Shown here in pieces: positions 633-2,539 of a stretch of DNA of 64,000 bases; position 1 is the stretch's first letter; every line of letters starts with the position of its first letter. The notes under the pieces were generated by a model, which was not told the DNA's origin, searched no databases, and was given only the letters and a program-made list of their open reading frames with translations. A program made the translations under genes and the position numbers. This stretch comes from a virus, in IMG/VR virus record IMGVR_UViG_3300033475_000008, positions 27,441 to 91,440 of that record; one strand, written 5' to 3'.

Positions 633-819
633 GTGTCTGTAGCTCAGGATAGGACAGAGCGGCCCGAACAACGGAGGGCGGCAGGCAAGAGGTTTGCGGA
701 TGCACCGGGTCCGGGCCTGACGGTCACAAGCCGAAGGGTTGGGGTACCTTATCCCCCGGCAGGGAAGCGCGTTTGACCAAACTTGCCCATCAGCGTGGGT
801 TCGAATCCCACCAGACACG
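633..819 (+). ncRNA. tRNA-Arg-like RNA with degenerate anticodon arm and ~105-nt structured insertion
   Basis: Perfect acceptor gtgtctg/cagacac, D-arm gctc/gagc and T-arm gtggg-TTCGAAT-cccac, with ~135 nt between the D- and T-arms. Confidence 0.75.
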
Positions 820-829
820 CGTAGTACGA

Positions 830-889
830 GGGCCTAGTTACCCAAGGTGAGGGTGCGCGCGCAACCGGGTTCGACTCCCGCTAGGTCCA
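830..889 (+). ncRNA. Anticodon-less mini-tRNA (60 nt) with G3·U70 and A73
   Basis: gggcctag/ctaggtcc stem, D-like accc-aaggtga-gggt, 11-nt linker, cggg-TTCGACT-cccg. Confidence 0.7.
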
Positions 890-980: not shown

Positions 981-1009
981 TTTACATCTAGTCGAGATCG
1001 TGGTATAGT
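981..1009 (+). promoter_or_regulatory. sigma70-type promoter (TTTACA-17-TATAGT)
   Basis: Member of a motif family that recurs about 14 times in the window. Confidence 0.75.
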
Positions 1010-1135: not shown

Positions 1136-1302
1136 GCGATGCTGGCACCAGGGCATAAGCGTGACGGTCAACCACGGCTGAGAGTCGGACTGATGAGCAA
1201 CGGTCCACCTGGTGGAGGTGCGGGCACTAACGCGTGGTGGCGAGTGTACCAACAGATCCTCACCCTTCTTGCTCTGAGACTTACCACCTCAGAGCAAGAA
1301 GG
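1136..1302 (+). ncRNA. Unrecognised tRNA-trailer structured RNA, copy A
   Basis: Colinear with 1383-1546, with compensatory changes in at least four helices. Confidence 0.75.
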
Positions 1303-1580: not shown

Positions 1581-1624
1581 AGAACCACCAGGGTGAACCT
1601 GGCAGAGTGATTGAGGAGACCACC

Positions 1625-2539
1625 ATGACCACGAGTACCATCGAGAACCGCACACTCCCCTGGTCCGGCTTGAGCACCGGTATCACCAGCGAGATCGTTG
1701 ACAGCCAGAACCTGCTCCAGAGCGCTGGCTTGGATTTCGACGTCGCGATCCGACCCATGTGGCGTCGACTCAGTGACGGCAACTTCGTGCAGGACCTGCG
1801 TGACCGTGAGGTCTACCGCACCGACACGGAGCACAAGCTCGGCACCGTGAAGACTCGCTACGAGATCTTCCAGAACCGAGACGCGTTCACCTTCGGTGAC
1901 GAACTCGTCAAGGGCGGTCACGGTCAGTGGGTGGAGGCTGGCTGCCGCAACGACGGGCGCCACGTCTTCATGACCATGAAACTGGGTGAGGGGTTCACCG
2001 TCGCCGGGCAGGACGCCTACGACCTCTACCTCTTCCTCCGCACCAGCCACGACGGCTCCACCGGCGTGTCCGCCCACGTGGTCCCGTTCCGGGTGTGGTG
2101 CCTCAACCAGACGGGACTGGTGATGAAGGAGCACGTGTCCTCCTGGACCGTGCAGCACACGACCAGTCTGGCTCAGAAGCTGACTGAGGCGAAGGCCGCT
2201 CTCCAGCTCTCCCAGTCCTACGGGGCCGCCCTGCAGACGCGGCTGGAAGACCTGGTGAAGAACCCGGTCTCCAAGATGCACGTCAAGTCCCTGCTGGAGA
2301 AGATCGTCCCGGAGACTCGTCCCAAGCGGGAAGAAATGATCGACGGGATCATGAACAACCTGAAGGACTCCCCGAACCTGGAGGGGTACCGAGACACCGC
2401 CTACGGGGCCCTGAACGCGGTCACGGAGTGGTACGACCACCTGAAGACGCAGCGCACCCCGGTGGCCCGCTTCGACTCGATCATGGCGGGTGAGGGCGCG
2501 AAGATGCGCAACCAGCTGGCCCTCGCCTTGGCCGCCTGA
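1625..2539 (+). CDS. DUF932 / phage-plasmid TIGR03299-like protein
   Basis: LGxVxxRYxIFQNxDAF, SHDGS, RVWCLNQ and TAYGALNAVTEW motifs; GAGGAG RBS. Confidence 0.85.
   Translation: MTTSTIENRTLPWSGLSTGITSEIVDSQNLLQSAGLDFDVAIRPMWRRLSDGNFVQDLRDREVYRTDTEHKLGTVKTRYEIFQNRDAFTFGDELVKGGHGQWVEAGCRNDGRHVFMTMKLGEGFTVAGQDAYDLYLFLRTSHDGSTGVSAHVVPFRVWCLNQTGLVMKEHVSSWTVQHTTSLAQKLTEAKAALQLSQSYGAALQTRLEDLVKNPVSKMHVKSLLEKIVPETRPKREEMIDGIMNNLKDSPNLEGYRDTAYGALNAVTEWYDHLKTQRTPVARFDSIMAGEGAKMRNQLALALAA

What the first reader, a model, noticed from the sequence alone, without database searches (positions are those of the whole stretch)
633..819. tRNA-Arg scaffold carrying a ~105-nt structured domain in its variable arm
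Seen: acceptor, D and T arms closely match the neighbouring tRNA-Arg(TCT) (gtctgtagctcag..ggacagagc; gtgggttcga.tcccac). The anticodon arm is degenerate (gccc-gaacaacgga-gggc). Bases 684-787 form an inserted domain closed by ggcaag..tttg/caaacttgcc, with internal hairpins (cgga/tccg, gggg/cccc, gccg/cggc) and a possible ggtca/tgacc pseudoknot. Excising the insert does not rebuild an anticodon stem, so it is not a simple intron. It also lacks tmRNA hallmarks (G3·U70, absent D-stem). Inference: a natural tRNA-scaffolded ncRNA that uses host tRNA processing for stability, or a decoy.
Basis: partly seen in the sequence, partly recalled or inferred. Interest (0 to 1): 0.75.

Follow-up and report, generated by a model that had tools for sequence, protein, structure and literature searches.

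The report
Anticodon-locked tRNA-shaped phage RNA
This is a real, unannotated 187-base phage gene for an RNA with a complete tRNA body, no usable anticodon and a nearly invariant 100-base extra arm; it belongs to a widespread, undescribed RNA family of phages and plasmids whose job is unknown.

Summary
Window 633-819 (+) encodes a tRNA-shaped RNA with acceptor, D and T arms, a 4-bp stem with a 10-nt loop at the anticodon position, and a 104-nt domain (684-787) where the variable loop should be. ARAGORN and Rfam do not call it. I collected 59 distinct relatives from Streptomyces phages, uncultivated phages (30-72% G+C, including jumbo phages), giant linear Streptomyces plasmids and a few actinobacterial genomes. 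On 24 members the fold has 93.7% of cells paired against 32-45% in slid controls. The tRNA Levitt pair 15-48 covaries (G-C 34, A-U 21). The 3' trailer behaves as in true tRNA genes. The extra arm has an invariant core, and a short stretch of it (CGUU) pairs with the anticodon-position loop (AACG). This is not an intron-bearing tRNA, a tmRNA or a YrlA Y RNA. No protein partner is conserved nearby. I read it as a non-decoding tRNA mimic matured by tRNA enzymes; its target is unknown. This scan met the same family earlier on three other genomes.

The parts
633..639 (+). acceptor stem, 5' strand (pairs with 812-818)
   Evidence: 7/7 pairs in all 24 aligned members; 6 of 7 pairs show changes on both sides
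640..661 (+). U8, A9, D arm (stem 642-645/657-660, loop with G15 and GG) and nt 26
   Evidence: U8 in 59/59 and A14 in 58/59; residue 15 covaries with residue 48; D stem 100% paired
662..679 (+). stem at the anticodon position (662-665/676-679) with 10-nt loop GAACAACGGA; no U33 and no 7-nt anticodon loop
   Evidence: all 4 stem pairs covary; the loop holds AAACG(G/A)A across the family and is 7-16 nt long
670..673 (+). loop bases AACG that pair with CGTT at 770-773 (pseudoknot locking the loop)
   Evidence: 94.5% of cells paired in A3; compensations in L213, L292 and L299 and G.U in L271 and L284; weak in the Gilson clade
684..692 (+). P1a 5' strand GGCAAG (684-689), A690, P1b GG (691-692)
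   Evidence: P1a has 5 of 6 pairs with double changes; P1b GG/CC becomes GAG/CTC in the Actinoplanes-type members
694..710 (+). invariant core, 5' half: TTGC-GGAT-GCA (hairpin P2 695-697/702-704), then CCGGGT
   Evidence: invariant in 24/24 aligned members; single-base insertions in Quantum and Moab fall in the GGAT loop
711..759 (+). peripheral module closed by P3 (CCGGG 711-715 with CCCGG 755-759), holding P4 (CC 716-717/GG 736-737 plus variable hairpin 718-735) and GTTGGGGTACCTTATCC
   Evidence: P3 compensations: L272, L275 and L278 (C-G to U-A), L274 (two U-A), L273 and Embleya (A-U); different sequences in L276, L279 and L281; a single hairpin replaces the module in short-form relatives
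760..778 (+). invariant core, 3' half: C-AGGGAAGCGCG-TTTGA, then P1b CC (777-778)
   Evidence: AGGGAAGCGCG is identical in every member found, partly because the searches required it
782..787 (+). P1a 3' strand CTTGCC
788..811 (+). linker CATCAGC (C794 = residue 48) and T arm GTGGG-TTCGAAT-CCCAC
   Evidence: T stem 100% paired, 4 of 5 pairs covary; 15-48 is G-C in 34 and A-U in 21 of 59
812..819 (+). acceptor 3' strand and discriminator G819; trailer starts with C820
   Evidence: C at +1 in 55/59 members, as in the window's own tRNA genes; encoded CCA in 8/59

Best explanation
Window 633-819 is a gene for a non-decoding, tRNA-shaped RNA of a widespread family carried by mobile elements. It is transcribed inside the phage's tRNA array. 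It folds into a genuine tRNA L-shape, and I infer that it is cut out by RNase P and 3' trimming and receives CCA like its neighbours. Where the variable loop should be it carries a ~100-nt arm. The near-invariant core of that arm (UUGC-GGAU-GCACCG ... AGGGAAGCGCG-UU) sits at the base of the arm and pairs through CGUU with the A-rich loop at the anticodon position. As a result the RNA has no free anticodon and cannot read codons. Most likely it acts as a tRNA look-alike. Its free acceptor/T-arm half and CCA end would be offered to a host or defence factor that handles tRNAs, as a competitor, decoy or carrier, while the locked lower half keeps it out of translation. Shown here: the fold, conservation, distribution and gene-end rules. 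Inferred: maturation, the lack of decoding and the decoy or carrier role.
For: 59 distinct homologues share the architecture. On 24 members 93.7% of cells are paired against 32-45% when partners are slid; 24 pairs change on both sides; 0 of 500 shuffles reach any measure. The tRNA core signatures are kept: U8 59/59, A14 58/59, and Levitt pair 15-48 G-C in 34 and A-U in 21 of 59. The gene ends follow tRNA rules: C at +1 in 55/59, and encoded CCA in 8/59 (about 1 expected by chance), including L274, L284 and L285, whose neighbouring tRNAs nearly all encode CCA. The Rfam tRNA model reaches 37.7 bits on a plasmid copy only by skipping 98+31 nt. The loop-to-core pairing is kept through compensations in L213 (A-U to C-G), L299 (inserted G with inserted C) and L292. 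The loops are 7-16 nt, A-rich on the 5' side and lack U33. The family is sporadic in cells (5 of 167 genomes including G001, which the pattern missed; 1 of 151) but common in phage tRNA arrays and giant linear plasmids. No promoter lies between the upstream tRNAs and the element. A 151-nt soil metatranscriptome contig lies wholly inside a homologue.
Against: No experiment shows the RNA, its ends, CCA or charging; the RNA-library contigs may derive from DNA. The loop-to-core helix is only 3-4 bp in some clades (window 4 bp, Gilson clade 3 bp). Its length barely exceeds that of shuffled A-rich loops (mean 4.9 versus 4.2). A mere decoy would not need a core that is invariant across hosts of 30-72% G+C, which points instead to a specific ligand, partner or chemistry. 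No target is known and no partner gene is conserved nearby. The invariance of the GCACCG and AGGGAAGCGCG blocks is partly imposed by my search patterns.
Confidence: 0.45

Rival explanations
1. The tRNA body is only a scaffold. It supplies processing signals and stability inside a polycistronic tRNA transcript. The working part is the invariant core, acting as an aptamer, ribozyme or protein-binding site unrelated to tRNA mimicry.
For: The core is far more conserved than the tRNA arms, whose stems vary freely. The peripheral module is swapped between long and short forms in near-identical bodies (Moab L003 versus L289 and L293), as in riboswitch-like architectures. No acceptor-stem identity element is conserved.
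Against: Tertiary tRNA signatures (15-48, U8-A14) and the CCA rules at the 3' end are maintained beyond what processing alone needs. No Rfam ribozyme or riboswitch matches. No ligand or reaction is suggested by context.
Confidence: 0.3
2. It is a working tRNA that is aminoacylated and used on the ribosome. Examples would be reading a four-base or special codon with its enlarged ACG-containing loop, or entering stalled ribosomes.
For: The loop ends in ACGGA, as does the loop of the neighbouring tRNA-Arg(ACG) (TTACGGA). The tRNA core is intact and a CCA end is likely. The phage's 40 tRNAs lack only Cys.
Against: There is no U33. Loop length varies from 7 to 16 nt. ACG is replaced by CUG, AUG or GCG in L292, L284, L271 and L299, each time in step with the core or as G.U. 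Acceptor and discriminator identity are not conserved. A domain folded back onto the anticodon tip should clash with the 30S decoding site (inference).
Confidence: 0.07
3. It is a tRNA gene interrupted by an intron that is removed to give a normal tRNA. ARAGORN with introns allowed proposes tRNA-Ser(cga) with a 94-nt intron.
For: ARAGORN -i returns that model.
Against: The proposed 3' half of the anticodon stem lies in the invariant GCGCG. The 5' half varies and covaries with its own adjacent partner (4 of 4 pairs). Excision does not restore a stem in relatives. At 94-105 nt the insert is far below group I size, and no Rfam intron hit was found.
Confidence: 0.02
4. It is a Y RNA of the YrlA type that tethers a Ro60 (Rsr) protein.
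For: YrlA RNAs mimic tRNA and occur in phages (PMC4201824). There is a weak Rfam YrlA hit next door at 838-949 (27.8 bits against a cut-off of 69).
Against: YrlA is circularly permuted: its acceptor-equivalent stem is closed by a loop, it has no free CCA end, and it has a 5' GNCGAA Ro motif. Here the ends form an open acceptor stem. No TROVE domain was found in this phage or in 5 other carrier records, one of them a complete 437-kb genome.
Confidence: 0.03
5. It is a decayed tRNA pseudogene or a chance resemblance.
For: tRNA finders do not call it.
Against: The core is near-invariant, with compensatory changes, across unrelated phages, plasmids and genomes.
Confidence: 0.01

Closest known systems
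YrlA / bacterial and phage Y RNAs (Rfam RF02553; Chen et al. 2014, PMC4201824; Wang et al. 2018, bioRxiv 10.1101/312249)
   Same: A non-coding RNA that copies the tRNA core (D and T arms, tertiary pairs including a covarying 15-48 pair). It is found in bacteria and phages, often near tRNA genes, and does not decode.
   Different: YrlA is permuted: T arm before D arm, a closed acceptor-like stem, no free CCA end, and ends that form the Ro60-binding stem with GNCGAA. This RNA has an open acceptor stem, an extra-arm domain with a different invariant core, and no Ro60 gene in the carriers tested.
tmRNA (SsrA)
   Same: A tRNA-like acceptor/T-arm half joined to a large structured body with pseudoknots. 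It does not decode through an anticodon and is processed like tRNA.
   Different: tmRNA lacks a D stem, needs G3.U70 for alanine charging and carries a tag reading frame. Here a full D arm is present, G3.U70 occurs in only a few members and no frame is conserved: single-base indels fall in the core.
Class II tRNAs with long variable arms (Ser, Leu, Tyr, Sec) and allo-tRNAs (PMC5389517)
   Same: The extra arm leaves the body between the anticodon stem and residue 48, and the core tertiary pairs are kept.
   Different: Their arms are simple 3-7-bp hairpins and their anticodon loops are canonical. Here the arm is a ~70-190-nt branched domain with an invariant core that pairs with the anticodon-position loop.
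Engineered tRNA scaffolds and natural tRNA-like processing handles (e.g. mascRNA, RF01684)
   Same: A tRNA shape used so that RNase P and 3' enzymes release a stable RNA.
   Different: In those cases the cargo replaces the anticodon arm or lies outside the tRNA-like part. Here the anticodon arm is retained and is itself part of the cargo's fold.
T-box Stem I / specifier-anticodon pairing
   Same: A structured RNA pairs with the anticodon loop of a tRNA body.
   Different: T-boxes act in trans on cellular tRNAs and control a downstream gene. Here the pairing is in cis within one molecule. No T-box features were found by Rfam.

Membership tests
canonical tRNA (Rfam RF00005 / ARAGORN) | cloverleaf with 7-bp acceptor stem, D arm, T arm and conserved tertiary residues | tested here: met
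   all three arms present; U8, A14 and covarying 15-48
canonical tRNA (Rfam RF00005 / ARAGORN) | 5-bp anticodon stem with 7-nt loop, U33 and a readable anticodon | tested here: not met
   4-bp stem with 10-nt loop GAACAACGGA; family loops are 7-16 nt without U33; not called by ARAGORN or Rfam
canonical tRNA (Rfam RF00005 / ARAGORN) | aminoacylation and use in translation | not testable with these tools
   needs acid-gel or periodate assays
tmRNA | no D stem, G3.U70, tag reading frame with resume codon, detection by ARAGORN -m or the Rfam tmRNA models | tested here: not met
   no tmRNA call; D stem present; position 3-70 is G-C here; indels of one base in the core
YrlA Y RNA (RF02553) | permuted tRNA-like domain with closed acceptor-equivalent stem, and ends forming the Ro60-binding stem with GNCGAA | tested here: not met
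   open acceptor stem at the ends; features as described in PMC4201824; no Rfam hit on 633-819
YrlA Y RNA (RF02553) | encoded near a Ro60/TROVE gene | tested here: not met
   no PF05731 match in G000 or in 5 other carrier records
intron-containing tRNA (group I in the anticodon loop) | excision restores a canonical anticodon stem-loop; group I core present | tested here: not met
   the ARAGORN -i model conflicts with covariation; no intron model hit; the insert lies 3' of a complete stem-loop
anticodon-locked tRNA-shaped RNA family (unnamed; this scan) | tRNA body, loop with AAACG(G/A)A, extra arm with UUGC-GRAN-GCACCG ... AGGGAAGCGCG-UU core | tested here: met
   window 633-819 carries every element

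The most novel reading that the evidence does not exclude
The invariant core may be an active site rather than a clamp. It could be a ligand-binding or catalytic RNA module that reads its own anticodon-position loop. The family would then be a gated or chemically active tRNA of mobile elements, for example a charged, non-decoding amino-acid carrier or an RNA-only anti-defence device acting on a universal host factor. That would be a new functional class of RNA on the scale of tmRNA or Y RNAs.
Probability: 0.2. Interest if true: 0.9.

Novelty: new variant of a known kind. Interest (0 to 1): 0.78.

Why it matters
Phage tRNA arrays are usually read as codon-supply devices. This family shows that they also carry a conserved RNA that keeps every hallmark of a tRNA body yet cannot decode. 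It recurs in unrelated phages (including jumbo phages), in giant linear plasmids and in sporadic genomic islands. A core invariant across hosts of 30-72% G+C implies a strong and still unknown selective function. Naming it would close an annotation gap: some records call hypothetical proteins over it. It would also give structural biologists a compact natural example of a tRNA fused to a domain that binds its own anticodon loop. It could point to a new way for mobile elements to interfere with tRNA-handling machinery or defences.

Tried and rejected
1. Rfam at gathering and at E<=10 gave nothing on 633-819. The only weak neighbour hit is YrlA at 838-949, 27.8 bits against a cut-off of 69.

2. 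A single-sequence MFE fold is not informative (z = -0.8).

3. The pattern TGCGGAT..GCACCGG..CCGG alone gave mostly chance hits in genomes and metagenomes (231 of 257 places).

4. A conserved neighbouring protein was sought and not found. All-against-all BLASTP of flanks gave only lineage-specific neighbours, spurious ORFs across the RNA itself, HNH endonucleases and, in three loci, a serine recombinase.

5. Ro60/TROVE, CCA-adding enzyme, RtcB and RNA ligase were not found in this phage record, which is 89% complete.

6. A tag-like reading frame through the core was rejected, because one-base indels occur in Quantum and Moab.

7. An SRP-like or local CCC-GGCA-GGG hairpin was rejected, because its 'loop' bases covary with 711-712.

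8. Arg identity (A20, ACG) was rejected: position 20 varies, and ACG changes in step with the core.

9. The loop-shuffle statistic for the pseudoknot has little power.

10. Sequencing runs gave only assembled contigs, so ends, strand and CCA cannot be read. Runs X1 and X4 are of uncertain kind.

11. Literature searches by topic and by core sequence found no description. The supplements of PMC10690425 are not held.

12. mafft-qinsi was not available.

Full report
**What is at 633-819**

The window is the right-hand 64 kb of a 91.4-kb virus record. The record carries 40 tRNA genes covering every amino acid except Cys. The stretch lies between tRNA-His (416-487) and tRNA-Arg(TCT) (891-964).

It reads as follows:
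- a 7-bp acceptor stem (633-639/812-818) with discriminator G819;
- U8 and A9, and a D arm (642-660);
- a 4-bp stem GCCC/GGGC with the 10-nt loop GAACAACGGA (662-679);
- a 4-nt linker, then a 104-nt domain closed by GGCAAG/CTTGCC (684-787);
- a 7-nt linker and a standard T arm (795-811).

ARAGORN calls six ordinary tRNAs in the window but not this one, and finds no tmRNA. Rfam finds nothing here even at E<=10. The fold of the single sequence is no better than that of shuffles, so the evidence has to come from comparison.

**Relatives**

blastn found the element in 14 Streptomyces phage records, among them Gilson, MeganTheeKilla, Moab, Quantum and Satis. There it sits in unannotated gaps beside tRNA genes, or under a 'hypothetical protein' call. 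Pattern scans and further BLAST searches added more members:
- uncultivated phage contigs, including records of 250-450 kb and loci of 30-36% G+C;
- giant linear Streptomyces plasmids;
- a few actinobacterial genomes: Streptomyces, Embleya, Kitasatospora, Actinoplanes and Streptosporangium.

After removing duplicates I hold 59 distinct sequences. In cellular genomes the element is rare. A pattern search hit 4 of 167 genomes around Streptomyces; the centre genome G001 also carries it but escapes that pattern. Only 1 of 151 genomes in the Actinoplanes family has it. It therefore travels with mobile DNA. This scan had already met the family on three other genomes and reached a similar description. 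I had written down the loop-to-core pairing before reading those notes.

**The fold**

I gave an explicit structure for 24 long-form members (alignment A3):
- 93.7% of cells form standard pairs, against 32-45% when the 3' partners are slid by 1-3 columns.
- 24 pairs change on both sides.
- None of 500 shuffles reaches any of the five measures.
- The acceptor stem, the stem at the anticodon position, the T stem, the closing stem P1a and the variable hairpin all covary.

Three further observations show that the tRNA body is real and not just a cloverleaf drawing:
- U8 is present in 59/59 and A14 in 58/59.
- The Levitt pair 15-48 is G-C in 34 members and A-U in 21, with 4 exceptions.
- Residues that could form the 9-[12-23] and 46-[13-22] triples are in place (read directly from the sequence).

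**The extra arm**

From the outside in, the arm is built as follows:
- P1a, 5-7 bp, which varies freely.
- An A-rich internal loop.
- P1b, which is GG/CC. It becomes GAG/CUC in the Actinoplanes-type members, a compensatory change.
- The invariant 5' core UUGC-GGAU-GCACCG. UGC/GCA can close a tetraloop, and the only indels, in Quantum and Moab, fall in that loop.
- A peripheral module.
- The invariant 3' core AGGGAAGCGCG-UU.

In the window and other long forms the module is closed by helix P3 (711-715 with 755-759). This helix is proven by compensation:
- C-G to U-A in L272, L275 and L278.
- Two U-A pairs in L274.
- A-U in L273 and in Embleya.
- Entirely different complementary sequences in L276, L279 and L281.

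That result rules out a local CCC-GGCA-GGG hairpin.

In short forms (Alone3, pSt2308 and many contigs, ~150 nt) the whole module is a single covarying hairpin. Near-identical tRNA bodies carry either form (Moab versus L289 and L293). The module is therefore peripheral and the shared core is what matters.

**The lock**

The loop at the anticodon position always contains AAACG(G/A)A. Its AACG can pair with the CGUU that ends the invariant core (window 670-673 with 770-773).

Support:
- The pairing survives an A-U to C-G change in L213.
- In L299 an inserted G is matched by an inserted C.
- In L292, CUG faces CGG.
- L271 and L284 show G.U.

Limits:
- The helix is only 3 bp in the Gilson clade and 4 bp in the window.
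- Because an A-rich loop faces a U-rich strand, its length is only slightly above that of shuffled loops (4.9 versus 4.2).

I rate the lock as probable rather than proven. Either way the loop cannot decode. It is 7-16 nt long and has no U33. Its 'ACG' changes whenever the core changes.

**Gene ends**

The base after the discriminator is C in 55 of 59 members, as it is after the tRNA genes of this window. CCA is encoded in 8 of 59, where about one would be expected by chance. These include L274, L284 and L285, whose neighbouring tRNA genes nearly all encode CCA.

No promoter-like site lies between the upstream tRNAs and the element; the next one is at 981-1009. The RNA is therefore most likely made and matured as part of the tRNA array, with a tRNA-type 3' end.

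Direct RNA evidence is thin. One 151-nt contig of a soil metatranscriptome lies wholly inside a homologue. The match of another begins exactly at its first base, though that contig continues upstream. Contigs cannot show ends, and such libraries may contain DNA.

**What it is not**

- Not an intron-bearing tRNA. ARAGORN with introns allowed forces a tRNA-Ser(cga) with a 94-nt intron. That model pairs a variable strand with the invariant GCGCG and ignores the covarying local stem.
- Not a tmRNA. It has a full D arm, no conserved G3.U70 and no frame.
- Not a YrlA Y RNA. YrlA is permuted, with a closed acceptor-like stem, no free CCA end and a Ro60-binding end. No TROVE gene is found in this phage or in five other carriers.
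- No protein gene is consistently adjacent.
- The phage record shows no CCA-adding enzyme, RtcB or RNA ligase.
- No paper in the library contains the core sequence.

**How it most likely works**

Shown: a conserved, structured RNA gene with a true tRNA body, tRNA-like gene ends and an extra arm whose invariant core contacts the anticodon-position loop.

Inferred: it is released by RNase P and 3' processing and gains CCA. It is excluded from decoding. It acts through its exposed acceptor/T-arm half and CCA end as a tRNA mimic toward some tRNA-handling factor, with the invariant core either enforcing the lock or providing the specific binding site. I give this 0.45.

The main rival (0.30) is that the tRNA body is only a processing and stability scaffold, and that the core is an aptamer, ribozyme or protein site in its own right. 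The extreme conservation of the core across very different hosts favours a specific partner or chemistry over a passive decoy, which is why the two readings remain close.

The idea of a tRNA-scaffolded, non-intron, non-tmRNA RNA is supported. Whether the RNA is a decoy or a scaffold remains open.

Noticed in passing
window 830-889: A ~60-nt mini tRNA-like element: an 8-bp acceptor-type stem GGGCCTAG/CTAGGTCC, a T arm with TTCGACT and no anticodon arm. Rfam gives a weak YrlA hit at 838-949 (27.8 bits against a cut-off of 69). The first stage also noted it (e1-6056537).
   Followed up: no
window 1136-1302 and 1383-1546: Two similar ~165-nt non-coding stretches, each directly behind a tRNA-Arg gene (CCG, ACG). 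They share blocks such as GGCTGAGAGTCG..CTGATGAGCAACG and end in long GC hairpins. There is no Rfam match.
   Followed up: no
window 981-1009 and 1553-1580; 1516-1546: Two strong sigma-70-like promoters (TTTACA-17-TATAGT and TTTACA-16-TAGGAT, both with TG) split the tRNA array into operons. A 12-bp terminator-like hairpin precedes the second.
   Followed up: partly
G000 whole record (window = 27441-91440): The record has 40 tRNA genes covering 19 amino acids, and only Cys is missing. The first ORF after the array (window 1607-2539) is unannotated here.
   Followed up: no
L003:1491-1823 (Moab gene 140), L271:229-378 (LuckySocke gene 22): GenBank records annotate 'hypothetical protein' CDSs across this RNA gene. 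These are probably spurious calls.
   Followed up: partly
L274, L276, L279, L281, L282, L284, L285, L290, L292, L298, L299 (coordinates): Family members of 217-278 nt carry a further 40-90-nt structured insert between the anticodon-position arm and P1. Some share blocks such as CAGGGTGATGCTCGGG. This may be a second module.
   Followed up: no
window 820-832; L002 after 1728; L243 after 12325: The trailers after the element share CG(Y)A(A)GTACRA (CGTAGTACGA, CGCAGTACAA, CGCAAGTACGA) in three otherwise different phages. The meaning is unknown.
   Followed up: no
L016:2429-4186, L078:6076-7635, L275:2861-4390: A large serine recombinase lies within ~1-2 kb of the element in three temperate-phage or prophage loci, so the RNA gene sits near the integration module there.
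   Followed up: no
L264, L269 (plasmid positions 13-24 kb from one end); L268 (~1.5 kb from the end of pFRL4): In several giant linear Streptomyces plasmids the element lies close to a replicon end.
   Followed up: no
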